Shown here in pieces: positions 8,658-64,000 of a stretch of 64,000 nt of DNA (position 1 is the first letter of the stretch; each line of letters starts with the position of its first letter). Origin of the DNA: Calditrichales bacterium. GTDB lineage: Bacteria > Calditrichota > Calditrichia > Calditrichales > J004. The stretch covers positions 928,001 to 992,000 of the forward strand of contig OZ254086.1 of assembly GCA_965267575.1 (NCBI GenBank), given 5' to 3'. Below the pieces are notes generated by a model. It saw nothing but the letters and a program-made list of their open reading frames with translations. It was not told where the DNA came from and ran no database searches. The position numbers were made by a program, and so were the translations under genes.

Positions 8658-8797
8658 ATACACTCCTTGGTCTGTTGTCTGTTTGTTAATTTGCTAAACC
8701 AACCTCATTTTTTCCAGCATAGCAAACAAATAAATTTGTACATTCAAAGTCCTGTTATTTAATTTCGGCTCTTGTAAACATAAAACACGAAAGAAAT

Positions 8798-30196: not shown

Positions 30197-30351
30197 CCTA
30201 AAAAAATTACCTTCCCTGGCAGCATGCCCGGCAGGTCACGGGATCTTCCAATATTTAAGATAAAATCGCTCCGGTATTATTGTCAGTTAAGAACGTGAAT
30301 AAATATCAAAGCAAACCTCAAAAAGGGCAATCGGAAAGTGTATGAAAGTGA

Positions 30352-30370
30352 TGTAGGAATTTTGACCACA
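30352..30370. promoter_or_regulatory. Putative NarL/LuxR-type binding site TGTAGG-N7-ACCACA
   Basis: Same left half-site and spacing as 29544-29562. Confidence 0.4.
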
Positions 30371-34848: not shown

Positions 34849-34856
34849 CAGATCAC

Positions 34857-35885: not shown

Positions 35886-35893
35886 ATTAACTC

Positions 35894-37471: not shown

Positions 37472-37493
37472 TTTGACTCCCTGAGTTAGGTTT

Positions 37494-41000: not shown

Positions 41001-41012
41001 GCATCACCATCC

Positions 41013-43265: not shown

Positions 43266-43290
43266 TTTTTCCTCCATTGAGCAATAACAT

Positions 43291-45096: not shown

Positions 45097-45102
45097 GAAG
45101 CC

Positions 45103-47659: not shown

Positions 47660-47671
47660 ACCTGCCCTCTT

Positions 47672-51182: not shown

Positions 51183-53897
51183 TTAGAATGTTAGGCCAAC
51201 GCCAAATTTCACGTAACGCGGCGCTGAATATTGCGATGGGTTTTGTATCCTGTCATAATATGTATTGAAATCTTCCTTGTGCGATGCCAGCTCCGAAGGC
51301 TCAACTACATCGGTATAGGCACGTCCGGATTGGCCATTCACTGCTACTTCGTTCAACGCATCCAGCAGATTGAAAACACTCAGGTCAAACTGCAGGCCAA
51401 ATCTCTGAGATAGGCGCATCTTGTAGAAAGCCGTCATGTCCAGGCTTACCTGAGTCGGGCGGTAATCGTTGTTCGGAGGCAGGTTAAGGTCGGCAAGCGT
51501 GCTCACACCCAGCGGAGACCAGGTATACGGAGCGCCGCTATTGTAATAACCCGTAAATGTAAGGCCCCACTGCGGCTTGTAGTAGCCAACCGTGGCGTTA
51601 AGCGTATGGCGCTGATCCCAGCTCATTACAATCAGCTTGTTTACAGGGTCTATATTGCTGCCGGCACGGCTGAAGGTCTGCGTCGGGTTATCGGCGTTGC
51701 CCCGTGTGTATTGCAGCGTGTAGTTTAGAAACGCGGCCCACTCTCCGAGGCGGTAATCCACTTTTACTTCAAGTCCTTTTGCGTTGCCGTAATCTTTGTT
51801 TGTATACAGACCGTATTCCACCTGGTTGTATGTGGTTACCACTTTCGCGCTCAGCAAATTATAGATGTCGCGGTAAAACAGGGCCAGTTCCAGGCCAAAT
51901 CCGTCGAACAGTTCCTGCCACAATCCCATTTCATATTGGACTGTTTTCTGGGCTTTTATCTCAGCGTTGCCCATGGTCGTGGCAAAGTCGCTGGGAGAAA
52001 CCAGGAAATTACTGTTCTGGTAGAGCGCGTAAAGCGGCGGCATCTGGAAAAAGTGACCATAGCTAAAGCGCAAAACCGCTTTGTCGCCAAGCTGGTAGGC
52101 CAGACCCAAACGGGGGCTTACCTGGATTTTCTTTTCAGCCTTGGGATAACTGGAAGTCTGGTTTAAGGAATCAGCAAACTCCAGCTGGTTGCCGGGGTTG
52201 CGGCGATCCGAAGGATAGACCGTATTGGGATCAAAATAGTCCAGACGCAGACCCAGGTTGATCACCATATCCTGGTATTCCATTTTATCCTGGATATAGG
52301 CAGCCACTTCGATTGGCTCCACCGTATAGGCATCCGTAAAACTGGATGTCGGCGGCAGGATTTCGGGGATATATTCGGCCGTTCCGTCAATCAGGTTTGC
52401 CCGCAGATCTTCGCCGTCCTGAACGGCAAACAGTTCATTGCGGATGGCGCTTTCCCTGTTATCCAGGCGGTGAAAGATATAATGAAAACCGGTCTTGATA
52501 GCATGTTTGTTGTTAATCTGCCAGGTCAGGTCAAGTTTGGCATTGTAATCTTCAAGCGTGCGCTCGTTATGGGTTTTTACCTGGCCGCCCGTAAAAAAGC
52601 CCACATCTTCCGTACTACGCAAATAACCATCATGAACATAGCGCGCATCAAGCGGATTGTCGAACAGGTAATAACCATTAAAATTATTCACGTAGGATAC
52701 ATTAAACTGGTAAAAAGCTGATAAGCCTAGAGACTGGTTAAGCTGCATGGAATACATATCCGTCTCACGGAAAGCCGTTGGCAGTCCGTCCGGGTTATAT
52801 TTAAAGCTATGATCGTATCCGTTCCACTCATCGTCATTGCGGGTATAAAGCAGGGAGACTTTCATCTCGTCGCTAAACTTATAGGTCAATTTGCCCAACA
52901 GAGATGTGTTGAGCGAATTGTTCATGGGGACAAAACTGTTATCACCTGTATGCTGCGTCAGCCAGGTTCCTTCCGGGCCGGAATAGTCACTGTAATCATC
53001 CACGTTAAAACGGCGGATTCCGTTCAGGTGGTTTTTGTTGTCCTGGAAACGGGCATTGGTAAAAAAGTAGAGTTTACCGGGAAGCAGCGAGCCACTCAGG
53101 TTAACTTTGTAATCCTGGTTTCGCAGCATGTCCACTTCACCCAGCCCAATAAAAATATCGTCGTTTGAGGTCAGATAGGTTCCGGAATTCACCGATACCG
53201 ATCCGCTGAGCTTGTCTCCGCCATCCTTGACTACGGCATTTACAACACCGCTCATGGCGCGTCCGTATTCGGCGTTAAACGTACCGGTTATAACTTCAAG
53301 GTCGCTAATCGACTCCGGCTCCAGGTCTACCGTCGAACCTTCGCCGCCAAACAGTTCATCCACCGGCAACCCGTCAACCATATAGGAAACTTCATTGCTC
53401 CGGCCGCCGCGGAAGTGGCCGTTTACAACACCGGCCTGCATCGAAATAACCGCGCCAACATTCTCAACCGGCAGAATATCGATCTGGTCGGAGCTGATAG
53501 CGCGCATAGAACTGGTCTGATCTTTCTTGGTAGCAATCTTGCTGGCCTGAACCGTAATTACCTCGCCTTCAAGCACCTCGCTGTCCAGCGTTATTTCAAG
53601 ATAGGCCGTGCGGTTTACGGAAACGCGTACATCTTCGACTTTAACTGTTTTATAGCCCAGCATTTCTACGGACAACTCGTAGGTTCCGGGCGCTACGTTC
53701 AGAATAAAAAAGCTGCCATCAAGGCCAACGGAAGCGCCCAAAGACGTACCGGTTACCAGCACGTTGGCGCCCGGCAGGGGTTCTCCGCTTTGCGCATCGA
53801 ATACCGTTCCGGCAATCTTGCCTGTTGTCTGGGCAAAGGCACTGCCAGCTGCGCATGTAATTAGAATTATAAATGTGAGTAAAATTTTTCGTTTCAT
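51183..53897 (-). CDS. TonB-dependent receptor with N-terminal carboxypeptidase-regulatory-like domain
   Basis: GKIAGTV..GEPLPGANV; RGGRSNEVSYMVDG, GTFNAEYG; SPRLG; PRYVKFGVGLTF; likely start MKRKIL at 53897. Confidence 0.92.
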   Translation of the reverse strand: MKRKILLTFIILITCAAGSAFAQTTGKIAGTVFDAQSGEPLPGANVLVTGTSLGASVGLDGSFFILNVAPGTYELSVEMLGYKTVKVEDVRVSVNRTAYLEITLDSEVLEGEVITVQASKIATKKDQTSSMRAISSDQIDILPVENVGAVISMQAGVVNGHFRGGRSNEVSYMVDGLPVDELFGGEGSTVDLEPESISDLEVITGTFNAEYGRAMSGVVNAVVKDGGDKLSGSVSVNSGTYLTSNDDIFIGLGEVDMLRNQDYKVNLSGSLLPGKLYFFTNARFQDNKNHLNGIRRFNVDDYSDYSGPEGTWLTQHTGDNSFVPMNNSLNTSLLGKLTYKFSDEMKVSLLYTRNDDEWNGYDHSFKYNPDGLPTAFRETDMYSMQLNQSLGLSAFYQFNVSYVNNFNGYYLFDNPLDARYVHDGYLRSTEDVGFFTGGQVKTHNERTLEDYNAKLDLTWQINNKHAIKTGFHYIFHRLDNRESAIRNELFAVQDGEDLRANLIDGTAEYIPEILPPTSSFTDAYTVEPIEVAAYIQDKMEYQDMVINLGLRLDYFDPNTVYPSDRRNPGNQLEFADSLNQTSSYPKAEKKIQVSPRLGLAYQLGDKAVLRFSYGHFFQMPPLYALYQNSNFLVSPSDFATTMGNAEIKAQKTVQYEMGLWQELFDGFGLELALFYRDIYNLLSAKVVTTYNQVEYGLYTNKDYGNAKGLEVKVDYRLGEWAAFLNYTLQYTRGNADNPTQTFSRAGSNIDPVNKLIVMSWDQRHTLNATVGYYKPQWGLTFTGYYNSGAPYTWSPLGVSTLADLNLPPNNDYRPTQVSLDMTAFYKMRLSQRFGLQFDLSVFNLLDALNEVAVNGQSGRAYTDVVEPSELASHKEDFNTYYDRIQNPSQYSAPRYVKFGVGLTF

Positions 53898-53921
53898 ACC
53901 GGAAATCCTTTTGGCCACATT

Positions 53922-53969: not shown

Positions 53970-56477
53970 TTATTTAACCAATAGCATTTTACGTGTCTGT
54001 ACAAAATCAGCCGCTTCAATGATGTAGAAATATACACCGGAAGAGAGGCCTGTACCATCTACTTTAACGAAATGCGTACCGGCGGTATGGTTACCACTTA
54101 CCAATGTACGGATTTTCTGACCGACAACATTGTAAAGCGTAATGGTAGCTTTGCCTGCTTTAGGCAGAGCGTATTCAATGGTTGTCGTCGGGTTGAACGG
54201 GTTGGGATAGTTTTGTCCCAGGTTGTATTCACGTACAACCGCGATTTCTTTATCACCGATAGCGCTTACAACAGCATTGGTATCACCGATCCAGGTGTAG
54301 AACCAGTTCTGGACACCCTGCCAGCTGTTGTCAAAGTTATTCGGCGAATAGGAAAGAATACCATCGCGCACGTTAGCCTGATCCGAGTCATGGAAAACCA
54401 GATCCAGCGGAATGCGCATACCACGCTTGGGCTCAAACAGAGCATCGTCGGAAGCGTTGCCGGTTGGCAATTCAGCCAACGGAATCATTACTTCAACGGC
54501 AAAGTCGGAAGCGCCAAAATCAACAAATTCGTAGTTGGCGTCGTCATTTGTGTAATAGAGGCTGGCGTCGCTGTTTTGTGTATGCTCAAAACCATCCGGA
54601 CGCAGAACGAACTTATAATCCGGCTCTTCGCCGCGCTTGAAGCCGTTATGCACAACCGTTTGGTTATAGAGACCCATGTAAACTTCGATAACATCATCTT
54701 CCCAGAAATTACCGGCAGGATCATAGCTGAAAACATCATCAAGAACATCAAATGCCATGTAGAGATTTTCACTGTCGATTGCCAGGTAGGCAGTGGAAGA
54801 ATAGTCATCATCATCATCAAAGTTGCCCAAAGCGATGTGGCTTTGAGAAGGTGAAAACTCAAAAGGACGAATATCGCTGTTAAACCATTCATCCAGGTTA
54901 CCGTCTGCGGCAAAACCGGCAGGGGCGGCCTGGGCGATCGTCGCAACGCCTTCAGCCGTATTAACCGTAGCAGATGCGGAAGCACCCACAGAACTGGTGT
55001 TACCGGCGGCGTCTGTACAGGTTACCGCATAGTAATAGGAAACTTCCGTGTCTTCCAACGGATAGATGAGGCGATGAATCGCGCTCTGCTCGCCTTCAAC
55101 AACACCCGTTGCCAAAACTTCAACGCCCGGGGCGTCTACGTCGGTAATCGGTTCGGTGCTGGCGTAAACATTATAAAATTCGCCTTGTTCACCGGGTACA
55201 TCCTGCCAGATAACCAGGTTGAAATAGCTGGATGTATTGGGCGCGCCGCTTACACCGGTCGGAGCAGCGGGAGCAACCACGTCGATATCCGGGTTACCTG
55301 TCCAGAAATCATCAAAATAGATCGTACGGCCGGCCATACCATTACCTTCAGACAAAAACTGCAAAACAGTAATAGCAGAAGTATCGAGATCAGCAGTACC
55401 GTCAACATAAGCGAAATCTTTTAATGCGAGAGCGTATTCATGCCACTCACCATCATCAGCAACCACATCAACCGGGTGGCCCACTTTACCTGCGCCGCCT
55501 TCAATTTGCATACGGATGGTCGGTGTACCAACATCAGCCTTCATCTTGAACTTCAGAGAATCGGTCATCCAGTCACGGGCCAGATCTGTAGCAGGCAGGT
55601 TCCATCCGGCACCAGTCCAGCCGCCGCATCCGCCGTCACCCTGAATCCACTTCAGCCCGTTTTTGCCTTCGGAGGAGCCGGCACCTTCTTCAACGCTTAA
55701 CTGCGATTCACACCAGGTGAACTGCTCATGGGCACCCGGAACGCTGTTTCCGTTAAACAGAACCAGGCTTTTGCCCAGATAGCCTTTGAGCGTCATGTTA
55801 TCAAGAATAACGGAACCCTGGGAAATGTCGCCTTCACCGGAACCATTGATCGAGAATTCAAAAGCAAACTGACGGATTTTATCTGTATCCAGCTTGTCGT
55901 TACCTTCAATACCGGCCCAGCCTGTACGGTTGAACGCTTCACCGCCCCACTCATCCAGATCGGGATTGCCACGGCCGTCTTCCAGCTTGATCTTGATCTC
56001 ATTCCAGCCCGGCTCATTATCCAGGATGTAATGGAAGCTGTAGTAAAACTCCATGTTGTTGGAGTTGGTCGACGTATCCGGTGCGTTACTGGCATCACTC
56101 AGGTTGATGCGCAGATGAACGCGGCCTGCCAGGTCTTGCTTTACATCATTATAATACCAGATGCTCAGCGTATCGAAAGCCGACCAGTCATAAAATCCCG
56201 CACTGTCCGGGTTGGTATGCTCAAGCTTTACAAAGCCGCCATAACCTTCAATGTTATGCACTTTGTAATCCAGGCGTATGGCGCCGGAACCGTCCTGAAC
56301 AACTTCTGTCTCCAGCGGGTACCCAATATTACTCGTCGAATCCGACGAGGATGGTGAGCGGACTATGGAGAAATAGGTCGAATCCAGCTGCGTATCAAAC
56401 GACTGGATCACGTCCTGCGCCCACAGCCCCAGCGGGAACAGAAGCACCATAAATAGGAACACGTAAGTCTTCTTCAT
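53970..56477 (-). CDS. Non-catalytic multi-CBM protein (galactose-binding-like x2, Fn3, CBM9-like, T9SS-type CTD)
   Basis: DWSAFDTLSIW, WHEYALALKDF, YYYAVT, DGNLDEW..LYMAFDVLDD..VEVMIPL; QNYPNPFNP; AGGAGG RBS. Confidence 0.75.
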   Translation of the reverse strand: MKKTYVFLFMVLLFPLGLWAQDVIQSFDTQLDSTYFSIVRSPSSSDSTSNIGYPLETEVVQDGSGAIRLDYKVHNIEGYGGFVKLEHTNPDSAGFYDWSAFDTLSIWYYNDVKQDLAGRVHLRINLSDASNAPDTSTNSNNMEFYYSFHYILDNEPGWNEIKIKLEDGRGNPDLDEWGGEAFNRTGWAGIEGNDKLDTDKIRQFAFEFSINGSGEGDISQGSVILDNMTLKGYLGKSLVLFNGNSVPGAHEQFTWCESQLSVEEGAGSSEGKNGLKWIQGDGGCGGWTGAGWNLPATDLARDWMTDSLKFKMKADVGTPTIRMQIEGGAGKVGHPVDVVADDGEWHEYALALKDFAYVDGTADLDTSAITVLQFLSEGNGMAGRTIYFDDFWTGNPDIDVVAPAAPTGVSGAPNTSSYFNLVIWQDVPGEQGEFYNVYASTEPITDVDAPGVEVLATGVVEGEQSAIHRLIYPLEDTEVSYYYAVTCTDAAGNTSSVGASASATVNTAEGVATIAQAAPAGFAADGNLDEWFNSDIRPFEFSPSQSHIALGNFDDDDDYSSTAYLAIDSENLYMAFDVLDDVFSYDPAGNFWEDDVIEVYMGLYNQTVVHNGFKRGEEPDYKFVLRPDGFEHTQNSDASLYYTNDDANYEFVDFGASDFAVEVMIPLAELPTGNASDDALFEPKRGMRIPLDLVFHDSDQANVRDGILSYSPNNFDNSWQGVQNWFYTWIGDTNAVVSAIGDKEIAVVREYNLGQNYPNPFNPTTTIEYALPKAGKATITLYNVVGQKIRTLVSGNHTAGTHFVKVDGTGLSSGVYFYIIEAADFVQTRKMLLVK

Positions 56478-57901
56478 AAAGACCTCCTGATTTTGTTAGA
56501 GTTGGGTGAATTGTGTGAGAGATTGTTTTTATGCTTGCCACGCCCAAAAGGCATAGCGGATCGTAAAAAAGGTTGCTCAAAAATGTGGCCGCTTTTATGG
56601 CCGGCCAGCCACAATACGACAAAAGCGAGCGCCAGAAAGGCGGCGGAAAAGACGGTCAGAAAAACATTACCTGCTTGTGAGGTAAAAGCCCAGACCATTA
56701 AAACAGCGGCCGGAACGGTAACGGCAAAAAGCAGCCAGCTTAAGCGCCCCGGTGTGCGCCCGCTGAGCAGAGCAAAAAGTATTAACGCCAGCAAAGCAGG
56801 AACAATGAAGATGGTTATAACGGCGACCGTATCAAACAGATTGAAAGCAAAAGAAAGTGTAGTGGGCACCAATACGATAACCAGCGGTACAGAGACGATC
56901 GAAAACAGCCTGGCGGCCAAAACGCGCTTGCGCCCCACCGGCGCCTCGATTATCCGCGGCAAAATATCATAACTGAAAAGCGTCGCCGATGAGAACAACA
57001 GAGATGCCAGTGCCGACAGCAGCATGAGCGCCAGGGCTAGGTAGCCCACGAAACCGGCGGCTCCCGCTTCACTGGCAACAAAGGGGCGCGAAAGTGCCGG
57101 GGTGCTGGCCGTCAGCAAAACGGCGATCAACGTAAATGCCAGCGCTGCTGCCCAAAGTGCTTTGCGCGCGGCGGCAATACTGCCGGTGGCAAAAAGGCGC
57201 TGCAACTGATTCTGGTCCCCCAGCCAAAGCCAGGCCACCACAAAAACGAGCGCGAAAAACGGCAGACTGAAAAATCCGCCCTCCATCGGAAACGCATGCT
57301 TGGTTCCGGTAAGTACAAACCCGGTAAGCAGCAGCAGCATAAAAACCGTATGAACGGCACCGCTGAATACAATCGCCCTGAGCCCGCCGATGATGGCAAA
57401 AAGTCCGGCAAATATCAATATGACATAAGCGCCCAGGTAGGGGTTCCAGCCCAGCATTTTTTGCAGCAACGTACCTGCGGCAAAAAGCAAAAGCAAAATA
57501 CGCAAAAGGTTAAAAAGCATCAGTCCGGCAGCATACCACAGTGCTATGCCGACATTAAAACGGCGGCGAATGAATTCGGAAATTGAACGCAGGGAATCAC
57601 TCATATAAGCAGGGATAAAGAAAACACCGAGGAGAAGCAGCGCCGGCAAAATAAGCAGGTCTGCATAAAAGGCGTTGCCCCAGCCTTTATCCAGCCCGAT
57701 ATACTCCATGATATGCCAGGCCGAGATATAAGCTGCCGGTAATGATAAACCGCTCAGCCAGGGAGAGAGCCTGAAGCCTGCCATGAAATACTCACGGCTG
57801 CTCTCATCATTATGACGACGCGCCATATACAGACTTGCCAGCAAGCTAAGGCCGGCAGCCAGAAAAAAGATGACTGATTCAAAGCTTAAATTCAGAGTCA
57901 C
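56474..57901 (-). CDS. Divergent SLC5/SSS-family membrane protein
   Basis: EYFMAG, SEFIRRRF, GGLRAIV, DQNQLQR, SSATLF; substrate-site motifs altered. Confidence 0.75.
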   Translation of the reverse strand: MTLNLSFESVIFFLAAGLSLLASLYMARRHNDESSREYFMAGFRLSPWLSGLSLPAAYISAWHIMEYIGLDKGWGNAFYADLLILPALLLLGVFFIPAYMSDSLRSISEFIRRRFNVGIALWYAAGLMLFNLLRILLLLFAAGTLLQKMLGWNPYLGAYVILIFAGLFAIIGGLRAIVFSGAVHTVFMLLLLTGFVLTGTKHAFPMEGGFFSLPFFALVFVVAWLWLGDQNQLQRLFATGSIAAARKALWAAALAFTLIAVLLTASTPALSRPFVASEAGAAGFVGYLALALMLLSALASLLFSSATLFSYDILPRIIEAPVGRKRVLAARLFSIVSVPLVIVLVPTTLSFAFNLFDTVAVITIFIVPALLALILFALLSGRTPGRLSWLLFAVTVPAAVLMVWAFTSQAGNVFLTVFSAAFLALAFVVLWLAGHKSGHIFEQPFLRSAMPFGRGKHKNNLSHNSPNSNKIRRSL

Positions 57902-57940
57902 AAATTATCCACGGTAATAAAAGTTGAAACTACTCTTATG

Positions 57941-57955
57941 ACATAAAGCGTGCCA
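57941..57955 (-). promoter_or_regulatory. Sigma54 -24/-12 promoter (variant -12)
   Basis: TGGCACG-CTTT-ATGT, 40 bp upstream of the 57901 start. Confidence 0.7.
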
Positions 57956-58033
57956 AGACCGCCCGGCAAGACCTAAAGTCTTTAAATACAGTGGTTTGCG
58001 ACATGGCGGATGGGAAGAGGTAATTTCGGCGAG

Positions 58034-58069
58034 TTATCATTTTGATAAGGCGACTTATTAAATTGATAA
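58034..58069. promoter_or_regulatory. Tandem palindromic enhancer (UAS) TTATCA-N3-TGATAA x2
   Basis: TTATCATTTTGATAA (58034) and TTATTAAATTGATAA (58055), 21 bp apart. Confidence 0.75.
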
Positions 58070-58070
58070 A

Positions 58071-59831
58071 TCAGCGTAACAGCATCATTTTTACGCTGTG
58101 CGTTTCTCTTTCAGCCATAACGCTGAAAAAGTAGATGCCGGAAGACAGGCTGCTTCCGTCCAGCGTCCAGGTCTGTTTCCCGGCCGGGAGCGGGCCGTCG
58201 TGCAGCAGGCTTACAACCTGTCCTTTGATATTCGTGATCCGCGCAGTTACCTGCTGGTTTGTGGGGTTAATAAAATTCAGCCTGGCAGACGGATTAAACG
58301 GATTTGGATATACGGACATCTCAAAATCCAGGGGAAGATTGCCCTGCGCTTCCGGCAGGTCACTGACTATCCGCTCCAGTTCAATGCCGCTCACCGTGGC
58401 CACGCCCGTTTCTGCTACAAAAGCAAGCGTAAGCCGATTGTCTTTCACCTGAACGCCGCTCAGTGTTTTGGTTAGGGCGCTTTTGCTGCCTGCTTCCGCA
58501 ACTATATCCAGATCGTCCAGGTACAGATTGTTTTCCGCATAGACGTCAAAAACACGCTGTCCGCTGTTGCTGTATTGGTTTTCGCTGAACAGCAGCTTTA
58601 CGTTGTAGCTGCCATTTGGCAGGCGGACATCATAAAACCCGATACCGCGCACTTCGCTGGCAAAAACGGCATCATTGTCCGTGTTGGCAATCGCGATGCT
58701 TTGCTCTACGGCCGTACCCCCGCCATAACCGAACGCTTTTGTATAACGCCACTCCTGGTCGGCCGCATAGGCGCCCTCACTGCTGCCGCCGACATTAACA
58801 AAAAAAGATTCCTGCGGCGCGCTGGCCACAACAACGTTGGCCAGTTCAATCACGTTACCGGCGTCGTCGGCAACATTCAAAACAATAAGATTGTAATTGA
58901 TTTCGGGATCGCGCCCGCTGGTATAAACACGGGCATCGGGGCCGTTAACTTCCACGGATTCGACAGTGAGACCGGGAATAAGATAATTGGAAGGTTGCTG
59001 CGCTGTTGCCGGGTCCAGCACATCTGAAAAGCGCACATGGATTGTATCCCCGATAAAGAAAGCGCCATGCACCCATGGTTTGGAAACATCCGCATCTTCA
59101 ATGGGCGCGCCGCTGTAGCCCGTTGGTGACGGTTTGGTCAGGCACAAAATCATATAGCCATCGTGGAAAACAACATTGTCCTGGATGAAATCGGCATTGT
59201 TTCCGTCAAAAGTATGGGTAGCTTTTTGCCAGCGCACAGCGTCAAAACTGTCAAAATTATCTTCCCACAAAAGGGTGAAATTATCATTCTCACCGGGGCT
59301 GTAGCGGTAATAGCGAATCCAGTCATAAAAAGCGTAAAGCGGCAGATTGTCGGGATCCAGCGTTCCGGCCCAATCGGGATAAAGCGGAGGCCATACGTTC
59401 ATCATAATTTTCTGGGCGCGGTCCAGGGTAAGCACATGCGTGCCGGTCTGGCGATAGACCTCTGCCCCGTCGATGGACCAGGCGATATAGTGCGGCGTCC
59501 ATTCAATGGCATATTCGTGGAAGTCGGCATGCGGATTGTAAGGCACGACATGGCGCTCAACGTGGTCAACGCGCCCCGGTGTAATGGCATTGAACTGCAC
59601 CTCGTTGGTGTAGCGACCCATGATCTCTATGTCCAGTTCATTCCAGCTGTTGGCGCCGGTGTTTTCGTGGTAGGTAAACAGCGAGGAAAGCATGCCTGAT
59701 GCCTGTGCAGACTTCATACGTACTTCGATGCGGCCATAGGTATAGGCGGCTTTTGTGCGGTATTCGGCACCGCGATAGTCCTTCGCCATTAAAACAGCCG
59801 TCATTACTAAAACAATCAATAAATATTTCAT
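58071..59831 (-). CDS. GH16 (ELDIE) + Ig-like + malectin + T9SS-type CTD; paralog of 43291-45096
   Basis: KDYRGAEYRT, WNELDIEIMG, IEWTP; FSE..RVFDV; YPNPFNP...KMMLLR. Confidence 0.9.
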   Translation of the reverse strand: MKYLLIVLVMTAVLMAKDYRGAEYRTKAAYTYGRIEVRMKSAQASGMLSSLFTYHENTGANSWNELDIEIMGRYTNEVQFNAITPGRVDHVERHVVPYNPHADFHEYAIEWTPHYIAWSIDGAEVYRQTGTHVLTLDRAQKIMMNVWPPLYPDWAGTLDPDNLPLYAFYDWIRYYRYSPGENDNFTLLWEDNFDSFDAVRWQKATHTFDGNNADFIQDNVVFHDGYMILCLTKPSPTGYSGAPIEDADVSKPWVHGAFFIGDTIHVRFSDVLDPATAQQPSNYLIPGLTVESVEVNGPDARVYTSGRDPEINYNLIVLNVADDAGNVIELANVVVASAPQESFFVNVGGSSEGAYAADQEWRYTKAFGYGGGTAVEQSIAIANTDNDAVFASEVRGIGFYDVRLPNGSYNVKLLFSENQYSNSGQRVFDVYAENNLYLDDLDIVAEAGSKSALTKTLSGVQVKDNRLTLAFVAETGVATVSGIELERIVSDLPEAQGNLPLDFEMSVYPNPFNPSARLNFINPTNQQVTARITNIKGQVVSLLHDGPLPAGKQTWTLDGSSLSSGIYFFSVMAERETHSVKMMLLR

Positions 59832-61411
59832 TGCGCATTCACCTCGAAATAGTTGTAGTTGGCGCCACCGGCTTCAACCATCAGGCGCAGGACCTGCTCG
59901 CCCTGCTCCAGGCTGAATGTCTTTGTCGTCACATTCTGCCAGTTCTGCCAGCCGCCGCTGGAGGGAATGTCAACCAGCCCGGTGAGGTCATTGTTCCCGC
60001 TGTAAAAGCGAAATTGAGCGCCGCTTTGGTTGGCCGCGCAACGAACGGTTATACTGTAGGAACCGCTTTGCGGCACATCAATGGTGTATTCCAGCCACTC
60101 GCCGTTTTCGGCCCAACCCACATTGTAGCCACCGCCGGCATCACTGCAGCGTTCGATATCCACGCCTTCATCGCTGCGGAAGGCACCGCCTGTGTTGCTT
60201 AGCGGTGTTGTATCGAAATAGGCCACGTTTTGCCCGCCGAGATCGTAGGCTTCACACTGCACGCGTCCCGGCACCTCAAACGGTTCACCGTTGTAGGGCG
60301 TCTGTTCGCAGCCGCTGCCCACCGTCAGATTCAGGATATCGGAAACCTGCGCCATGCCGTTTTTGTCGGTCGCCCGGGCACGCACCATAAGACAGCCTTG
60401 CGGCACGTCGTTCCAGGTGTAACGGAAGGGCGCGCTGTTCACTGTGGCAATCTTCCTGGCGCCGTTAAAAAAAGCCACTTCGCTGATATTCGCGTTATGT
60501 TCAACCGTCGCCTCCAGCGTGACAGGCACACCGGCCTCATAAGTATCGCCGTCCTTTGCTTCCAGCGTTATCTGCGGTCGTTCACCGGCGCGTTCATACA
60601 CCCGCACATAATCGATGTACATGCGTTGCGGAAATTGTGTCGTTTCATCAGGGTAGCCCGGCCAGTTTCCGCCAACGGCCACGTTCAGCAAAATGTGGAA
60701 GCGCTTGTCAAACGGCGCCGGCCAGGGCGCACTGTTGCTGTACCATTCATCCTGCGTGGCATACAGCTCACCATCCACGTACCAGCGCATTTCGCCTGGT
60801 TCCCACTCCAATGCAAACAGGTGATATTCATCCGCGAAACGACCATTATCCAAAGAAAAACTGGTGCCTGTATGCACATTTCCCGGCCAGCTGTCACCGT
60901 AATGCAGCGTTCCGTGAACGGTCGACGGTTCATGTCCGACCAACTCCATGATGTCGATTTCGCCGCTGGCAGCCCAGCCGCCATATTCCCAGTCCGTGGG
61001 CAACATCCATATCGCCGGCCAAATGCCCTGTCCGAAAGGCAGTTTGGCGCGAATCTCAAAGCGTCCGTAAAGCCAGTCGCCTTTGTTTTTAGTGGTCATC
61101 CTGGCCGAGGTATATTCGGAGCCTTCATAATTTTCTTTCCGCGCTTCAATTACCAGAACACTATCCAGTATGTAGGCGTTTTGCGAACGTGCGGTATAGT
61201 TTTGCCATTCGTTGTTACCCCACCCGCTGGCGCCCAGCTCAAAGTTCCAGCGTGAACCATCAACGGCCTCTCCGTTGAACTCGTCCTGCCAGACCAGTTT
61301 CCAATCGCCGTCCTGCCCGGAATCGTTATTTTCCGGTTGCGCGGGATTGGAACAGCTAAAGGAGGTATTCACCAGCAGCAATATGATCAGAAGATTTTTA
61401 TAAACAGACAT
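59828..61411 (-). CDS. GH16 laminarinase-type (EIDIME) lipoprotein + Ig-like + CBM6
   Basis: WQDEF, GWGNNEWQ, GIWPAIWML, GEIDIMELVG, NVAVGGNWPG; GGWQNW; likely start MSVYKN at 61411. Confidence 0.92.
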   Translation of the reverse strand: MSVYKNLLIILLLVNTSFSCSNPAQPENNDSGQDGDWKLVWQDEFNGEAVDGSRWNFELGASGWGNNEWQNYTARSQNAYILDSVLVIEARKENYEGSEYTSARMTTKNKGDWLYGRFEIRAKLPFGQGIWPAIWMLPTDWEYGGWAASGEIDIMELVGHEPSTVHGTLHYGDSWPGNVHTGTSFSLDNGRFADEYHLFALEWEPGEMRWYVDGELYATQDEWYSNSAPWPAPFDKRFHILLNVAVGGNWPGYPDETTQFPQRMYIDYVRVYERAGERPQITLEAKDGDTYEAGVPVTLEATVEHNANISEVAFFNGARKIATVNSAPFRYTWNDVPQGCLMVRARATDKNGMAQVSDILNLTVGSGCEQTPYNGEPFEVPGRVQCEAYDLGGQNVAYFDTTPLSNTGGAFRSDEGVDIERCSDAGGGYNVGWAENGEWLEYTIDVPQSGSYSITVRCAANQSGAQFRFYSGNNDLTGLVDIPSSGGWQNWQNVTTKTFSLEQGEQVLRLMVEAGGANYNYFEVNAQ

Positions 61412-61448
61412 GACGGCACCTTTTGCTAAATAGAATCTTTTTATATAA

Positions 61449-61463
61449 ACAAGAGGCATGCCA
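61449..61463 (-). promoter_or_regulatory. Sigma54 -24/-12 promoter (variant -12)
   Basis: TGGCATG-CCTC-TTGT, 38 bp upstream of the 61411 start. Confidence 0.7.
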
Positions 61464-61527
61464 TCAGCGAAAGCAGCGCGGGGCAGCGGATATCTAAGGA
61501 CGGACACAAACAATCATCACACTAATT

Positions 61528-61563
61528 CTTATCAAATTGATAAGCAGTTTATCAATATAATAA
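61528..61563. promoter_or_regulatory. Tandem palindromic enhancer (UAS) TTATCA-N3-TGATAA x2
   Basis: CTTATCAAATTGATAAG (61528) and TTATCAATATAATAA (61549). Confidence 0.75.
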
Positions 61564-63009
61564 CTATTTAAGACCGAGTTCCTTGCACATACGGTAAAAA
61601 TTGGGTGGGGCCAAACCAAGGGTTTGCGCGGCTTCGGCGTCGGAATTGCTTTTGGAACGAACAAAGCTGAAATACTCGGCGCGCATTTCCCGCTCCAGCT
61701 TGCGCCACTCTTTAACTTCATCCAGCTCAAAGCGCCACAGGCCTTTGCCGCGCCGGCGCATGGTATTGCCCAGAGCGTTTTGCACGTCCGCCGGGTTGAT
61801 GTCGCCGTCACTCAGAACCAGGATGCGCTGCAATACATTCTGCAACTGACGCACATTGCCGGGCCAGTCAAATTCCTGCAGAGCTTGCAACGCCTTTTTT
61901 TCTACATTCGGCTTGTCCAGTTTCATCTTATCGCACATGCGTTCCAGGAAGTAGTCCACCAGTTCGGGAATGTCACCGCGCCTTTCAACCAGATCCGGCA
62001 CGCGCAGGGTAACCACGTTCAAACGGTAGTAAAGATCTTCACGGAACATCTTATCCTGCACAGCCTCCAAAAGATTTTTATTGGTGGCGGCTATAATGCG
62101 CACATCCACCTGCACCTTCTCCGTGCGGCCAATCTTATCGATTTCACCTTCCTGCAAAACACGCAATAGCTTGGCCTGCGCCGACGCCGGTAATTCCGCG
62201 ACTTCATCCAGGAATAGCGTACCTTTGTGCGCGATTTCAAACAGGCCTTTTTTGTGGGTACTGGCACCTGTAAAGGCGCCTTTCTCAAAACCAAACAGCT
62301 CGCTTTCGATCAACTCGCTGGGCAGGCTGCCGCAGTTTATGGCAACAAATTTTTCCGTGCGCCGGTTGCTGCTGTAGTGCAGATGGTTGGCCACCAGTTC
62401 CTTGCCCGTTCCGGAGTTCCCAAAAATCAGAACGGTCGGCTCCTGGCGGCTCAGCTTTTCAATCTGCGAGCGCAAATTCTCCATGGCCGGCGATTCACCG
62501 ATGATACGTTTTTCTTCCAGCAGATCGTCGATGGTGCGTTTTAACTTGCGCTCCGAAAGGTATTGCTCTTTTGCCAGCTTTTTCTTTTCGTAAGCGTTAA
62601 AGATGCTCAGGATAAAATCGGTGGGCTGATAAATATAATCCTCGATATCGCCGGGATACTTGGTACAATACCACATGGCACCGGCCTCAATCAGGCGGTT
62701 GGCAAATTCAAAATCACCCACGTTGATGGTCATTTTCGTGATCACGATGATCTGCAGAAAACGGTCGATGTTTTTTATTTCGCGTATCAGCTTTTCCCCG
62801 CTGATGCCCCCTACTATCTGGTAATCCATTATCACCACATCAAAACCATCGCGGTCATTTTGCAGGTGCTCCAGAGCTGTCTGACCGTCGGCGGCCATGG
62901 CCTTTATGCGGATGCGGTCTTCAAAAGGCTCCAGGGTCCGTTGAACGCGTTTGGCGTCGTATTCTTCGTCTTCAATCAGCAGGAGATTTATTGTCTTGGG
63001 AAAAAGCAT
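61564..63009 (-). CDS. Sigma54-dependent response regulator (REC-AAA+-HTH, NtrC family)
   Basis: IEDE..MDYQ; GNSGTGKE, GAFTGA, LFLDEV, FREDLYYRL, WPGNVRQL, C-terminal HTH. Confidence 0.95.
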   Translation of the reverse strand: MLFPKTINLLLIEDEEYDAKRVQRTLEPFEDRIRIKAMAADGQTALEHLQNDRDGFDVVIMDYQIVGGISGEKLIREIKNIDRFLQIIVITKMTINVGDFEFANRLIEAGAMWYCTKYPGDIEDYIYQPTDFILSIFNAYEKKKLAKEQYLSERKLKRTIDDLLEEKRIIGESPAMENLRSQIEKLSRQEPTVLIFGNSGTGKELVANHLHYSSNRRTEKFVAINCGSLPSELIESELFGFEKGAFTGASTHKKGLFEIAHKGTLFLDEVAELPASAQAKLLRVLQEGEIDKIGRTEKVQVDVRIIAATNKNLLEAVQDKMFREDLYYRLNVVTLRVPDLVERRGDIPELVDYFLERMCDKMKLDKPNVEKKALQALQEFDWPGNVRQLQNVLQRILVLSDGDINPADVQNALGNTMRRRGKGLWRFELDEVKEWRKLEREMRAEYFSFVRSKSNSDAEAAQTLGLAPPNFYRMCKELGLK

Positions 63010-63998
63010 TACTTCTCGTTCCGTTTAGGATTTATGTCAATTGTAAAGCGGCAGCCCTTGCCTTGCAGGTTTTCTGCATCAATGCGCCAGCCGCAGCGCT
63101 TGGCGATTTCAAAGGAAAGATAGCAGCCATAGCCGGAATTGCGGCTGTTGGTTTTGGTGGAAATATTTTCCTGGAATATCTTTTTAACACCAAATTCATC
63201 TTCTTCCAGCAGTTCGGGATTAATGCCTTTGCCATTGTCCTCAATCGCGATAACCGTTTGCTCATTGGCGATTGTCTTAACGGTTATAACCGTGTCTTCT
63301 GCGGCGGCGTGGTCTAAACTGTTCTGGAGCAGGGGTTCAATAACTTCCCAAACCACAAATTCGTTCACCTGTACCACCGGAAAATTTTCATCCAGCTCAA
63401 GCTCGAAGCGCAGACGCTCCACATTTCCGGAGAGTCGCATAAAAATGTTATCCACAATAAAGCGGATCACCTCATTGATATTGGTTTTAAAAAGCGGATT
63501 GCGGATGGTGTGCACGGGCGGATCGTACCATTTCATATCATAAATTACGCGTGATATAAAATTAGCGTACTTTCCAACGCGGTATCGCACGTCATCAATG
63601 TTGGACTGCTCCAGCCGCTTCAGGTCCTCCTTGATAAAGCCCATTACTTTTTCTGCTTTATGGTGCGTGTGATAAATACGCTTGGTAAACATAGATTCTT
63701 TCTCGTGGGTAATGTGCTCGCGCAGATAGTGTTCACGTTCGCGGAACAATGCCTGCTGGGCTTCGTCGCGTTCGCGGATGGTATAGGTGGAAATATAAAA
63801 CATGCCCAGCAAACCAAATACGATCAGCGCGGTGAAAACCAGCGTGGTTTCGTTGTAGCTTGTATTTACCTGCTGCGTGAGAAAGGAAAAGTCCGGCTGG
63901 ATACGCACGTACACGGCCCCGGAAAACTCGCCGTTGGGCACCAATGGCACAAACACATGAAACTGTTCATCTTCACCGGAAAAGGTGTAGATACGTTC
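63009..63998 (-). CDS. Partial membrane sensor histidine kinase with atypical H-box
   Basis: Frame is open to the window end; TM helix, YHTHHKAEK, QNSLDH, EDNGKG, GYGCY. Confidence 0.8.
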   Translation of the reverse strand, partial: ERIYTFSGEDEQFHVFVPLVPNGEFSGAVYVRIQPDFSFLTQQVNTSYNETTLVFTALIVFGLLGMFYISTYTIRERDEAQQALFREREHYLREHITHEKESMFTKRIYHTHHKAEKVMGFIKEDLKRLEQSNIDDVRYRVGKYANFISRVIYDMKWYDPPVHTIRNPLFKTNINEVIRFIVDNIFMRLSGNVERLRFELELDENFPVVQVNEFVVWEVIEPLLQNSLDHAAAEDTVITVKTIANEQTVIAIEDNGKGINPELLEEDEFGVKKIFQENISTKTNSRNSGYGCYLSFEIAKRCGWRIDAENLQGKGCRFTIDINPKRNEK

Positions 63999-64000
63999 GT

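What the first reader, a model, noticed from the sequence alone, without database searches (positions are those of the whole stretch)
57941..63998. Sigma54-controlled polysaccharide locus with a readable regulatory code: two promoters, each with a tandem palindromic UAS
Seen: two intergenic regions each contain TGGCA(C/T)G-N4-(A/T)TGT about 40 bp before a start codon. Each also has two copies of TTATCA-N3-TGATAA 20-21 bp apart, 65-115 bp upstream of the -24 element. A GAFTGA-containing activator and a kinase are encoded immediately upstream. Known: sigma54 activators bind tandem upstream sites, while Bacteroides PULs typically use HTCS, SusR or ECF control. Inference: this motif is the operator of the 61564-63009 activator and defines a beta-glucan regulon.
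Basis: partly seen in the sequence, partly recalled or inferred. Interest (0 to 1): 0.75.

Follow-up and report, generated by a model that had tools for sequence, protein, structure and literature searches.

The report
Sigma-54 switch for beta-glucan digestion genes
A sugar-sensing signalling trio in a little-studied bacterial phylum appears to switch on its beta-glucan-digesting genes through a paired DNA motif and a special promoter type, a wiring that is conserved in many relatives but is a new example of a familiar kind of switch.

Summary
Both intergenic regions carry a -24/-12 element (57941-57955, 61449-61463, minus strand). Each also has two TTATYA-N3-TRATAA palindromes 20-21 bp apart, centred 74-108 bp upstream of the GG.

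This is far above chance. Only 3 perfect palindromes exist in the 4.73-Mb genome, and 2 are here. Tandem pairs occur at 4 places, against 0 in reversed or block-shuffled genomes. All four are followed by a sigma54-type element. The two outside the window precede GH3-GH30-GH5 and lie beside GH9/DoxX-YdjC.

The organism is a Calditrichota bacterium, not Bacteroides, and the locus has no SusD. rpoN is present. The activator is a REC-AAA+-HTH protein with GAFTGA and no close paralog.

Orthologs in 80 loci from other genomes keep a solute-binding protein, kinase and activator in that order. The tandem motif is found in 44 of 80 loci, against 0 in reversed controls. A sigma54-type element lies near 36 of 52 tandem sites, where about 3 are expected.

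Verdict: a real, conserved sigma54 beta-glucan regulon and a new member of a known kind. DNA binding, transcription starts and the inducer are not tested.

The parts
63009..64000 (-). Sensor histidine kinase. Only the C-terminal part lies in the window; the full gene is 489 aa and runs to window-equivalent 64478.
   Evidence: HATPase_c matches at E 1.8e-15. The full protein has two hydrophobic segments flanking a domain of about 170 aa. H270/H272/H273 in RIYHTHHKAEK are invariant in 57 sequences. An SBP_bac_1 gene lies directly upstream, outside the window.
61564..63009 (-). NtrC-type enhancer-binding protein of 481 aa: receiver domain, AAA+ sigma54-interaction domain and a C-terminal helix-turn-helix-like tail.
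   Evidence: Pfam matches: PF00158 at 2.1e-70, AAA_lid_14, Response_reg at 5.9e-11. GAFTGA is present. D62, Walker A/B, GxFTGA and R323/R329 are invariant in 80 sequences. The best paralog in the genome is 38% identical.
61549..61563 (.). Distal palindrome of operator 1 (TTATTATATTGATAA on the minus strand). It abuts the activator's stop codon.
61529..61543 (.). Proximal palindrome of operator 1 (TTATCAATTTGATAA, perfect). Its centre is 74 bp upstream of the -24 GG.
61449..61463 (-). Sigma54-type -24/-12 element TGGCATGCCTCTTGT. The transcription start is predicted near 61437.
   Evidence: It matches the genome's own sigma54 promoter pattern.
59828..61411 (-). GH16 glucanase with Big_7 and CBM6 domains; first gene of operon 1.
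   Evidence: Pfam. NCBIfam gives endo-1,3-1,4-beta-glycanase-like hits below the cut-off.
58071..59831 (-). GH16 glucanase with a malectin domain and a type IX secretion C-terminal sorting domain; second gene of operon 1.
   Evidence: Pfam. The BglS-like hit is E 1.1e-46, below the cut-off. Its start overlaps the stop of the previous gene by 4 nt.
58055..58069 (.). Distal palindrome of operator 2 (TTATCAATTTAATAA on the minus strand).
58034..58048 (.). Proximal palindrome of operator 2 (TTATCAAAATGATAA, perfect). Its centre is 87 bp upstream of the -24 GG.
57941..57955 (-). Sigma54-type -24/-12 element TGGCACGCTTTATGT. The transcription start is predicted near 57929.
56474..57901 (-). Sodium:solute symporter family transporter; first gene of operon 2.
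   Evidence: Pfam SSF at 4.3e-17. An SSF gene also follows the tandem operator in relative L037.
53970..56477 (-). CBM9/CBM11 protein with a type IX secretion sorting domain.
   Evidence: Pfam. Homologs lie downstream of the activator in L101, L106, L117, L119, L125 and L127.
51183..53918 (-). TonB-dependent receptor (CarboxypepD_reg, Plug and barrel domains) with no SusD partner.
   Evidence: Pfam. SusC/RagA matches the N-terminus only and below the cut-off. The genome's single SusD_RagB hit lies elsewhere.
32872..51166 (-). Rest of the inferred operon 2, ten genes with gaps of 23 nt or less: 1164-aa protein, PorV/PorQ-family protein, SurA_N-like protein, 237-aa protein, GH16-malectin-T9SS, GH3, CotH-LTD-T9SS, SSF, GH5, GH5-CBM6-T9SS.
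   Evidence: ORF spacing. Pfam and NCBIfam. Co-transcription is inferred from the spacing alone.

Best explanation
This is a sigma54-dependent beta-glucan utilisation regulon of a Calditrichota bacterium, run by a three-gene sensor module.

Proposed mechanism:
1. A membrane-anchored periplasmic solute-binding protein (just outside the window) binds a beta-gluco-oligosaccharide.
2. It signals to the periplasmic domain of the adjacent histidine kinase.
3. The kinase phosphorylates Asp62 of the REC-AAA+-HTH activator (61564-63009).
4. The activator's unusual C-terminal helix-turn-helix (LGLAPPNFYRMCKELGLK) binds two TTATYA-N3-TRATAA palindromes about two helical turns apart, most likely one dimer per palindrome.
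5. The protein assembles into the active AAA+ ring, loops the DNA, and uses its GAFTGA loop to open sigma54 holoenzyme bound at TGGCAYG-N4-WTGT, 54-87 bp downstream of the proximal palindrome.

In this genome the switch sits at four promoters:
- GH16-GH16 (61411 to 58071).
- An inferred 25-kb, 13-gene operon starting with the SSF transporter (57901 to 32872). It includes a TonB-dependent receptor, CBM proteins, GH16, GH3 and two GH5.
- GH3-GH30-GH5 at genome position 2.667 Mb.
- A site between GH9 and DoxX-like/YdjC genes at 4.091 Mb.

Shown by sequence: the motifs, their rarity, their conservation and the domain content. Inferred: binding, phosphotransfer, looping, operon extents and the inducer.
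For: Rarity of the motif:
- The genome holds 3 perfect palindromes, 2 of them here.
- It holds 4 tandem pairs, against 0 in the reversed genome and 0 in 3 shuffles.

Link to sigma54 promoters:
- Each of the 4 tandems is followed by a -24/-12 element at 54, 73, 74 or 87 bp.
- No single site with at most 1 mismatch elsewhere pairs convincingly with such an element.
- These promoters fit the genome's own sigma54 pattern. TGGCAYG-N4-WTGT occurs 16 times; 9 are intergenic and all 9 point at a gene start, in 7.6% intergenic DNA. rpoN is present.

Target genes form one pathway:
- GH16 x3, GH3 x2, GH30, GH5 x3, SSF x2, a TonB-dependent receptor and CBM6/9/11 proteins, with GH9 beside the fourth site.

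Activator:
- It has intact receiver, AAA+ and GAFTGA features, invariant in 80 sequences.
- It has no paralog above 38% identity among 22 other hits.
- Its C-terminal helix-turn-helix is at least 90% conserved at most positions in 75 orthologs and unlike those of 20 paralogs.
- Other sigma54 promoters in the genome carry different upstream palindromes.

Footprinting in relatives:
- The tandem pattern is found in 13 of 22 genomes with an ortholog and in 1 of 19 without.
- It precedes GH16 (8), SSF, GH3 or GH5 in 11 of 15 relative loci.
- In 80 orthologous loci from Calditrichota, KSB1, Ignavibacteria and Neomarinimicrobiota MAGs, 44 carry tandems. Spacing peaks at 22-23 bp. Reversed sequences give 0 pairs at any spacing from 15 to 59 bp.
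- 36 of 52 tandem sites have a -24/-12 element within 20-130 bp, where about 3 are expected. Distances cluster at 60-63, 69-75 and 79-87 bp.

Sensor module:
- Solute-binding protein, kinase and activator keep this order. Full-length matches number 60, 64 and 79 of 80 loci.
- The complex prediction of the solute-binding protein with the kinase's periplasmic domain gave only weak support. Median score was 0.44 and the best of 3 controls 0.00. Runs agreed in at least 88% of contacts and partner pLDDT was at least 77. The mark was reached by 116 of 157 solved complexes and 2 of 215 mismatched pairs, but scores of 0.60 or under came from only 18 of those 157 and from both mismatches that passed.
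Against: - There are no experimental data. No RNA run holds the stretch, so transcription starts are unmapped and binding is untested.
- The -12 element ends in GT, not the canonical GC. One regulon promoter has TGGTAC and one TGGCAA at -24.
- Pfam finds no HTH_8 domain in the activator at E <= 0.001.
- 36 of 80 orthologous loci show no tandem within the fetched flanks. 9 of 22 ortholog-bearing genomes gave no match to the strict pattern.
- At 2 mismatches the AT-rich pattern also hits unrelated places: 4 of 15 loci, and the backward-read control matched in 4 genomes.
- Proximal-site distances in this genome (54, 73, 74, 87 bp) do not all differ by whole helical turns.
- At the fourth site the target strand is ambiguous, and distant GH9 homologs in relatives have no operator.
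- Co-occurrence counts come from related genomes and overstate independence.
Confidence: 0.8

Rival explanations
1. The promoters and palindromes are real, but the palindromes are bound by a different, unlinked DNA-binding protein such as a repressor or nucleoid protein. The adjacent activator would then bind some other sequence.
For: No binding data exist. The motif is AT-rich, and loose matches occur at unrelated genes (4 of 15 loci). The motif is also missing near 36 of 80 orthologs.
Against: The tandem pattern is found mostly in genomes with the activator ortholog: 13 of 22 against 1 of 19. It often starts within 100 bp of the ortholog's stop codon. It keeps a phased 60-87 bp distance to -24/-12 elements. 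The activator's helix-turn-helix is as conserved as the motif. No other repeated element was seen upstream of all four promoters.
Confidence: 0.07
2. The system is as described, but the signal is not laminarin. It senses cello-oligosaccharides or mixed-linkage (beta-1,3-1,4) oligosaccharides from plant or lichenan-type glucans, or a common product such as cellobiose or gentiobiose.
For: The GH16 enzymes score best against lichenase and endo-1,3-1,4-beta-glycanase models, below the cut-offs. The regulon includes GH5 x3 and sits beside a GH9, families typical of beta-1,4-glucanases. The closest studied three-component sugar sensor, CuaDSR, senses cellobiose (passages).
Against: GH16 + GH30 + GH3 is the set I recall (no call here) as typical of laminarin loci in marine Bacteroidota. 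GH30 suggests beta-1,6 branches. Enzyme specificity cannot be read from family membership.
Confidence: 0.4
3. The -24/-12 matches are not functional sigma54 promoters. The operons would be read from housekeeping-sigma promoters, and the palindromes would act in some other way.
For: The -12 ends in GT/GA rather than GC. No transcription start is mapped.
Against: The same variant is strongly enriched in gene-oriented intergenic positions genome-wide (9 of 16). It is found beside 36 of 52 tandem sites in other genomes, where about 3 are expected. The sigma70 consensus scan found no promoter-like site on the minus strand in either intergenic region, though that consensus may not suit this phylum.
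Confidence: 0.04

Closest known systems
NtrB/NtrC-type two-component sigma54 activators with tandem upstream activating sequences (NtrC, DctD, ZraR, AtoC)
   Same: The activator has the same REC-AAA+(GAFTGA)-HTH architecture and a partner kinase gene beside it. Two dyad-symmetric sites lie about 2 helical turns apart, 55-110 bp upstream of a -24/-12 promoter. That these families use tandem sites is recalled, not taken from a call.
   Different: It reaches no NCBIfam equivalog cut-off; the best hits, NifA and NtrC, score 333 and 330 bits against cut-offs of 529 and 559. The helix-turn-helix sequence and the operator (TTATYA-N3-TRATAA) are different. The targets are secreted glycoside hydrolases and glycan transport genes. 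An orphan solute-binding protein is conserved upstream of the kinase.
CuaDSR three-component system of Ruminiclostridium cellulolyticum (PMC10384115; abstract and passages read)
   Same: A solute-binding-protein gene is adjacent to kinase and regulator genes. That binding protein is a dedicated sensor separate from the transporter's own, and the system controls beta-glucan (cellobiose/cellulose) utilisation genes.
   Different: CuaR is a receiver plus HTH_AraC regulator, not a sigma54 activator. The organism is a Firmicute, and CuaD is a lipoprotein rather than membrane-helix anchored. The target there is an ABC importer and phosphorylase, not secreted GH16/GH5 enzymes and a TonB-dependent receptor.
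LevR/CelR-type sigma54 activators of Firmicutes (PMC6615313; passages read)
   Same: Sigma54 plus a dedicated enhancer-binding protein and an upstream activating sequence control carbohydrate catabolism (levan, cellobiose).
   Different: Per the same paper's abbreviation and reference lists, those activators are regulated through PTS regulation domains, not by a receiver domain and kinase. They control PTS uptake operons, not outer-membrane or type IX secretion glycan machinery.
Bacteroidota polysaccharide utilisation loci (SusC/SusD with HTCS, SusR or ECF/anti-sigma control)
   Same: The locus is a large co-oriented cluster of glycoside hydrolases, carbohydrate-binding proteins and a TonB-dependent receptor, with its own sensor and regulator at one end. 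The enzymes carry type IX secretion sorting domains.
   Different: There is no SusD next to the receptor, and only one SusD_RagB hit in the whole genome, elsewhere. The receptor does not reach the SusC/RagA cut-off. Regulation is by sigma54 and an NtrC-type activator. The organism is Calditrichota. The typical regulator types of Bacteroidota PULs are recalled.
Fibrobacter succinogenes Fisuc_0397 (PMC3079729; one passage read)
   Same: [quoted passage not shown] The authors noted it as a possible regulator.
   Different: The passage gives only gene proximity, with no operator, promoter or regulon described. Relatedness to the activator here was not tested.

Membership tests
Bacterial enhancer-binding protein, response-regulator (NtrC) class | AAA+ sigma54-interaction domain with Walker A/B and arginine finger | tested here: met
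   PF00158 matches at E 2.1e-70 over the full profile. G197-E204 (position 198 varies), D268/E269 and R323/R329 are invariant in 80 sequences.
Bacterial enhancer-binding protein, response-regulator (NtrC) class | GAFTGA loop that contacts sigma54 | tested here: met
   GAFTGA lies at residues 244-249. G, F, T, G and A are invariant; position 245 varies.
Bacterial enhancer-binding protein, response-regulator (NtrC) class | N-terminal receiver domain with phospho-acceptor aspartate and a cognate kinase | tested here: met
   PF00072 matches at E 5.9e-11. E13/D14, D62 and K92 are invariant. The kinase gene overlaps the activator's start by 1 nt. Phosphotransfer itself is not testable here.
Bacterial enhancer-binding protein, response-regulator (NtrC) class | C-terminal Fis-type helix-turn-helix DNA-binding domain | tested here: inconclusive
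   Pfam gives no HTH_8 hit at E <= 0.001. The last 27 residues are highly conserved in 75 orthologs and sit where paralogs have their helix-turn-helix. No structure was predicted.
Bacterial enhancer-binding protein, response-regulator (NtrC) class | Equivalence to a named activator (NtrC, NifA, AtoC, ZraR, GlrR and others) | tested here: not met
   All 25 NCBIfam hits shown (of 28) fall below their curated cut-offs. It belongs to the class but to no named equivalog.
Sigma54-dependent promoter | -24 TGGCA(C/T) and -12 (T/A)TG at the fixed canonical spacing, oriented toward a gene, with rpoN in the genome | tested here: met
   rpoN DNA-binding domain matches at E 2.7e-61.
Sigma54-dependent promoter | C of the -12 GC dinucleotide | tested here: not met
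   Both window promoters have T (TTGT, ATGT). This is the genome's norm: among gene-oriented intergenic hits the last base is T in 9-11, A in 5-8, C in 2-5 and G in 0-1. That GC is the canonical -12 dinucleotide is recalled.
Sigma54-dependent promoter | Transcription start 11-13 nt downstream of -12, dependent on rpoN and the activator | not testable with these tools
   No RNA run holding the stretch was listed.
Bacteroidota PUL (SusC/SusD type) | Adjacent SusC-like and SusD-like gene pair | tested here: not met
   The protein after the receptor (1164 aa) has no Pfam family. The genome's single SusD_RagB hit lies at 4.697 Mb, and SusD-like_3 gave none.
Three-component system (solute-binding protein, kinase, regulator) | Solute-binding-protein gene conserved next to the kinase and regulator genes without ABC permease genes | tested here: met
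   SBP_bac_1 matches at E 1.7e-19 directly upstream of the kinase. Its neighbours are DUF4956 and VTC genes, not permeases. The order is kept in relatives, with the binding protein full length in 60 of 80 loci.
Three-component system (solute-binding protein, kinase, regulator) | Physical contact between the solute-binding protein and the kinase's sensor domain | tested here: inconclusive
   The verdict was weak support: median score 0.44, best control 0.00.

The most novel reading that the evidence does not exclude
The solute-binding protein, kinase and sigma54 activator, together with the phased tandem operator, may be the ancestral, widely shared glycan-sensing switch of the FCB lineages outside Bacteroidia (Calditrichota, KSB1, Ignavibacteriota, Neomarinimicrobiota). 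It would be the functional counterpart of HTCS/SusR/ECF control in Bacteroidota PULs, governing SusD-less, type IX secretion-linked beta-glucan loci. These lineages would read a relaxed -12 element (TTGT/TTGA), so their sigma54 regulons would be systematically missed by canonical GG-N10-GC scans.
Probability: 0.45. Interest if true: 0.65.

Novelty: new member of a known kind. Interest (0 to 1): 0.5.

Why it matters
Calditrichota and their neighbours are widespread sediment bacteria with almost no genetics. How they control polysaccharide degradation is not described in the papers I could search. The Caldithrix abyssi genome paper's main text never mentions sigma, NtrC, two-component, GH16 or laminarin; its supplements were not opened.

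This study yields a 15-bp operator, its spacing rule, a promoter pattern and a regulator family. Together they let beta-glucan regulons be predicted directly from MAG sequence across several phyla. They also point to a specific solute-binding protein as the likely oligosaccharide receptor. Finally, the results show that sigma54 promoter scans tuned to TTGC would under-call promoters in this genome.

Tried and rejected
- RNA evidence: the look-up of sequencing runs listed no RNA holder for window 56000-63000, so no reads were laid and no transcription start could be checked.
- Rfam: 0 matches at gathering score in 56000-64000, so no known RNA element explains the intergenic regions.
- Sigma70 and terminator consensus scan of 57700-61700: 1 promoter-like site, on the plus strand inside a gene, and 6 terminator-like sites against a shuffle mean of 5.2. 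Nothing useful came of it. One 'terminator' (57968-57951) overlaps the -24 element and is probably a chance match.
- GH9 test for the fourth site: homologs in 6 of 40 relatives (35-39% identity) lie in other gene contexts without operator or -24/-12 element. This could not settle which strand the fourth promoter serves.
- IHF-site reading of the palindrome: considered from the recalled consensus WATCAANNNNTTR. By eye the palindrome does not fit, and no scan was run.
- My first sigma54 regex missed many promoters in relatives (22 of 53 sites). Inspection showed variants at positions 5-7 of the -24 element. The looser pattern was defined after seeing them, so the figure of 36 of 52 is partly post hoc, though its background rate was measured on the same loci.
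- One regex had a wrong spacer and its sigma54 column should be ignored.
- The gene set used for 'intergenic' counts is a crude greedy longest-ORF call of 3,864 genes. It wrongly buried the GH16 promoter inside an over-extended ORF.


Full report
**The observation**

All genes from 32.9 kb to the window's end lie on the minus strand. Read on that strand, the gap between the activator's stop (61564) and the GH16-CBM6 start (61411) contains these elements:
- TTATTATATTGATAA (61563-61549)
- TTATCAATTTGATAA (61543-61529)
- TGGCATGCCTCTTGT (61463-61449)

The gap between the second GH16 gene (stop at 58071) and the SSF transporter start (57901) contains:
- TTATCAATTTAATAA (58069-58055)
- TTATCAAAATGATAA (58048-58034)
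- TGGCACGCTTTATGT (57955-57941)

Palindrome spacing is 20 and 21 bp. Palindrome centres lie 74/94 and 87/108 bp upstream of the -24 GG. The -12 G is 37 and 39 nt before the start codon. The caveats are that one copy in each pair has one mismatch, and that the -12 element ends in GT rather than GC.

**Is it more than chance?**

In the 4,732,520-bp genome the perfect palindrome occurs 3 times, two of them in these two gaps. There are 41 matches at one mismatch or fewer and 436 at two or fewer. With the degenerate form TTATYA-N3-TRATAA, pairs 20-23 bp apart with at most 2 mismatches in total occur at 4 places. The reversed genome gives 0, and each of three 7-mer block shuffles gives 0. TGGCAYG-N4-WTGY occurs 22 times on both strands.

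**The other two tandem sites**

The site at genome 2,667,033 (plus strand) is followed 73 bp later by TGGTACGCTTTTTGA and then by a GH3-GH30-GH5 gene row.

The site at genome 4,090,571 lies between two divergent genes. One is a GH9 gene with a type IX secretion sorting domain, whose start is only 22 bp from the operator. The other side holds a 146-aa DoxX-like ORF (named from its look; no family search was run on it) followed by a YdjC gene. The -24/-12 element there is TGGCAAGTAAAATGC on the plus strand. That element is nearly palindromic and also reads TGGCATTTTACTTGC on the minus strand. In that reading the GH9 gene would be driven with the operator downstream of the start. I could not settle the direction.

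No other palindrome with at most 1 mismatch in the genome pairs convincingly with a -24/-12 element.

**The promoters fit the organism's own sigma54 pattern**

rpoN is present. Using a crude longest-ORF gene set (3,864 genes, 7.6% intergenic), TGGCAYG-N4-WTGT occurs 16 times. Nine are intergenic, and all nine point at a gene start within 250 bp. The canonical ...TTGC form is rare: 6 in total, 2 so placed. By last base, gene-oriented intergenic hits are T in 9-11, A in 5-8, C in 2-5 and G in 0-1. Several of these promoters lie directly downstream of other activator genes, and they carry different upstream palindromes. The TTATCA palindrome is therefore specific to this regulon.

**The regulator module**

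The 481-aa protein has a receiver, a sigma54-interaction AAA+ domain and an AAA lid, and it contains GAFTGA.
- In an alignment of 80 sequences, D62, E13/D14, K92, Walker A, GxFTGA, D268/E269 and R323/R329 are invariant.
- It reaches no NCBIfam equivalog cut-off.
- Its nearest paralog among 22 other hits in the genome is 38% identical.
- Pfam finds no HTH_8 domain. However, the last 27 residues (SDAEAA..LGLAPPN[YF][YH]RMCKELG[LI]K) are at least 90% conserved at most positions in 75 orthologs. They differ from the C-termini of 20 paralogs.

The kinase runs past the window's end. In full it is 489 aa with two hydrophobic segments around a domain of about 170 aa. It has an invariant RIYHTHHKAEK box.

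Directly upstream, outside the window, lies a 440-aa SBP_bac_1 protein with an N-terminal hydrophobic anchor. It has no ABC permease neighbours.

**The target genes**

Operon 1 holds two GH16 enzymes, one with CBM6 and one with malectin and a type IX secretion tail.

From the second promoter, thirteen genes follow with gaps of at most 52 nt, down to 32872:
- SSF transporter
- CBM9/CBM11-T9SS protein
- TonB-dependent receptor
- a 1164-aa protein
- PorV/PorQ-family protein
- SurA_N-like protein
- a 237-aa protein
- GH16-malectin-T9SS
- GH3
- CotH-LTD-T9SS
- SSF transporter
- GH5
- GH5-CBM6-T9SS

Co-transcription is inferred from spacing only. The locus is not a SusC/SusD PUL. The genome has one SusD_RagB match, far away, and none to SusD-like_3.

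**Who is it?**

The closest relatives of the activator in named records are MAGs labelled Calditrichota/Calditrichia. More distant orthologs (52-64% identity) are labelled KSB1, Ignavibacteria/Melioribacter and Neomarinimicrobiota.

**Footprinting in the 40 nearest genomes**

Twenty-one of the 40 genomes have an ortholog at 53-64% identity. Other matches are at most 48% identical.

Within 450 bp downstream of the ortholog's stop, tandem palindromes are present in L005, L006, L007, L013, L017, L021 and L024. My -24/-12 pattern matched in six of these seven, all but L021. L022 and L023 carry the same half-sites with a 4-nt spacer. Elsewhere synteny is broken or the contig ends.

The tandem pattern, at up to 2 mismatches, matched in 14 of 41 genomes. 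That is 13 of the 22 with an ortholog (own genome included) and 1 of the 19 without; the exception is G035, which is 73% complete. The backward-read control matched in 4 genomes. These genomes are kin, so the contrast overstates independence.

Of 15 relative loci fetched around such matches, 11 put the tandem in front of glycan genes:
- GH16 in L034, L035, L036, L038, L039, L040, L042 and L046
- SSF in L037
- GH3 in L045
- GH5 in L048

Nine of the 15 also had a -24/-12 match. The other four (L041, L043, L047, L049) look like chance hits.

**Footprinting in 80 named orthologous loci**

- Tandems 20-22 bp apart with at most 3 mismatches occur in 42 of 80 loci, against 2 of 80 in reversed sequences. 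At one mismatch or fewer the figures are 30 against 0.
- The spacing histogram peaks at 22 bp (30 pairs) and 23 bp (12 pairs). Reversed sequences give no pair at any spacing from 15 to 59 bp. At spacings of 20-23 bp, 53 sites fall in 44 loci.
- 36 of 52 merged sites have a -24/-12 element within 20-130 bp, with 0.059 expected per site. The pattern was loosened after inspection.
- Distances from the proximal palindrome centre to the GG cluster at 60-63, 69-75 and 79-87 bp. This suggests a face-of-helix constraint.
- Homologs of this locus's GH16, GH5, GH3, GH30, CBM9/11 or receptor genes lie downstream of the activator in 42 of 80 loci, by my count's rows. A divergent GH3 lies upstream in two more.
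- Solute-binding protein, kinase and activator keep this order. Full-length matches number 60, 64 and 79 of 80; many of the rest are cut by contig ends.
- In eight loci the tandem sits just upstream of the solute-binding-protein gene. That would mean autoregulation or control of a divergent GH3.

**Mechanism**

The best-supported reading is a three-component sensor. The solute-binding protein would bind a beta-gluco-oligosaccharide and signal to the kinase. The kinase would phosphorylate D62 of the activator. Activator dimers would sit on two palindromes about two turns apart, assemble the AAA+ ring, and open sigma54 holoenzyme by DNA looping. Everything after 'the motifs and domains are there and conserved' is inference from established knowledge of NtrC-class activators.

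A complex prediction paired the solute-binding protein (residues 36-440) with the kinase's periplasmic domain (residues 38-210), using my own alignments. It gave only weak support:
- Median score was 0.44; the best of 3 controls was 0.00.
- Runs agreed in at least 88% of contacts, and partner pLDDT was at least 77.
- The mark was reached by 116 of 157 solved complexes and 2 of 215 mismatched pairs.
- Scores of 0.60 or under came from only 18 of those 157 and from both mismatches that passed.

**The inducer is open**

The GH16 enzymes score best against lichenase-type models, below the cut-offs. GH5 and GH9 suggest beta-1,4 bonds and GH30 suggests beta-1,6 bonds. Laminarin, mixed-linkage glucan and cellodextrins are all possible.

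**Comparison with what is known**

The activator is a member of the NtrC class, and all tested defining features but one are met. The helix-turn-helix is unconfirmed by Pfam. It is not an equivalog of any named activator.
- Sigma54 control of sugar catabolism is known in Firmicutes through PRD-type activators such as CelR (cellobiose) and LevR (levan) (PMC6615313, passages).
- A sensor made of a solute-binding protein, a kinase and a regulator for cellobiose is known in Ruminiclostridium. There the regulator is AraC-type (PMC10384115, abstract and passages).
- In Fibrobacter, a sigma54-like response regulator next to a GH9 gene was noted without further analysis (PMC3079729, one passage).
- Full-text searches for Caldithrix/Calditrichota with sigma-54/RpoN, and for enhancer-binding protein or sigma54 with polysaccharide utilisation or laminarin, listed no paper describing this system (listings only).
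- The Caldithrix abyssi genome paper's main text has 0 occurrences of sigma, NtrC, two-component, GH16 or laminarin. Its supplements were not opened.

**Verdict**

The finding is real and the interpretation largely right. It is a new regulon and activator subfamily of a well-known kind, with a cleanly readable operator-promoter grammar conserved across several little-studied phyla. It remains entirely computational.

Noticed in passing
whole genome G000; window promoters at 57941-57955 and 61449-61463: The organism's sigma54 -12 element is mostly TTGT or TTGA, not the canonical TTGC. Among gene-oriented intergenic hits the last base is T in 9-11, A in 5-8, C in 2-5 and G in 0-1.
   Followed up: partly
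G000:C1:4090651-4090667 (L003 about 8652-8668): The -24/-12 element of the fourth regulon site is nearly palindromic (TGGCAAGTAAAATGCCA) and reads as a sigma54 promoter on both strands. On the minus strand it would drive the GH9-T9SS gene with the tandem operator downstream of the transcription start.
   Followed up: partly
window 32872-57901, minus strand: Thirteen genes with gaps of at most 52 nt look like one operon of about 25 kb behind a single sigma54 promoter. It includes a PorV/PorQ-family protein (46601-47659), a CotH-kinase/lamin-tail/T9SS protein (37494-41000) and an unannotated 1164-aa protein after the TonB-dependent receptor.
   Followed up: no
G000:C1:4696593-4696898: This is the only SusD_RagB match in the whole genome, and SusD-like_3 gave none. 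The glycan loci of this organism are essentially SusD-less.
   Followed up: partly
G000 genome positions 272041, 1042505, 1211626, 2604276, 3662619, 4194893: Sigma54-type promoters sit directly downstream of other activator genes. Each has its own different upstream palindrome, for example TTGTCGCAGCCACGCGACAA and GTAAACGATGTTTAC. Placing an activator gene just before its target promoter seems to be a general layout in this genome.
   Followed up: partly
L085, L087, L094, L095, L101, L112, L116, L119 (about 100-200 bp upstream of the solute-binding-protein gene): In these relatives a tandem operator lies upstream of the sensor operon itself, in L112 with -24/-12 elements on both sides. This suggests autoregulation or control of a divergent GH3. 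No such site exists upstream of the solute-binding-protein gene in G000.
   Followed up: no
L022, L023, L123 (downstream of activator orthologs of 53-54% identity): The operator half-sites are kept but with a 4-nt spacer (TTATTA-TTTT-TGATAA, TTATCT-TTTT-TGATAA), followed by TGGCACGGAGTTTGA about 130-140 bp further on.
   Followed up: no
L130:4790-6287 (window-equivalent 65789-67286), minus strand: DUF4956 and VTC-domain genes lie immediately upstream of the solute-binding-protein gene, and the DUF4956 ORF overlaps its start. Whether the sensor genes are co-transcribed with them is unknown.
   Followed up: no
window 29567-32790, minus strand: A second kinase with three PAS domains and HisKA_3 (31000-32790) lies directly after the long operon. 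Two ORFs of 209 aa follow it and were not annotated. This may be another regulatory input.
   Followed up: no
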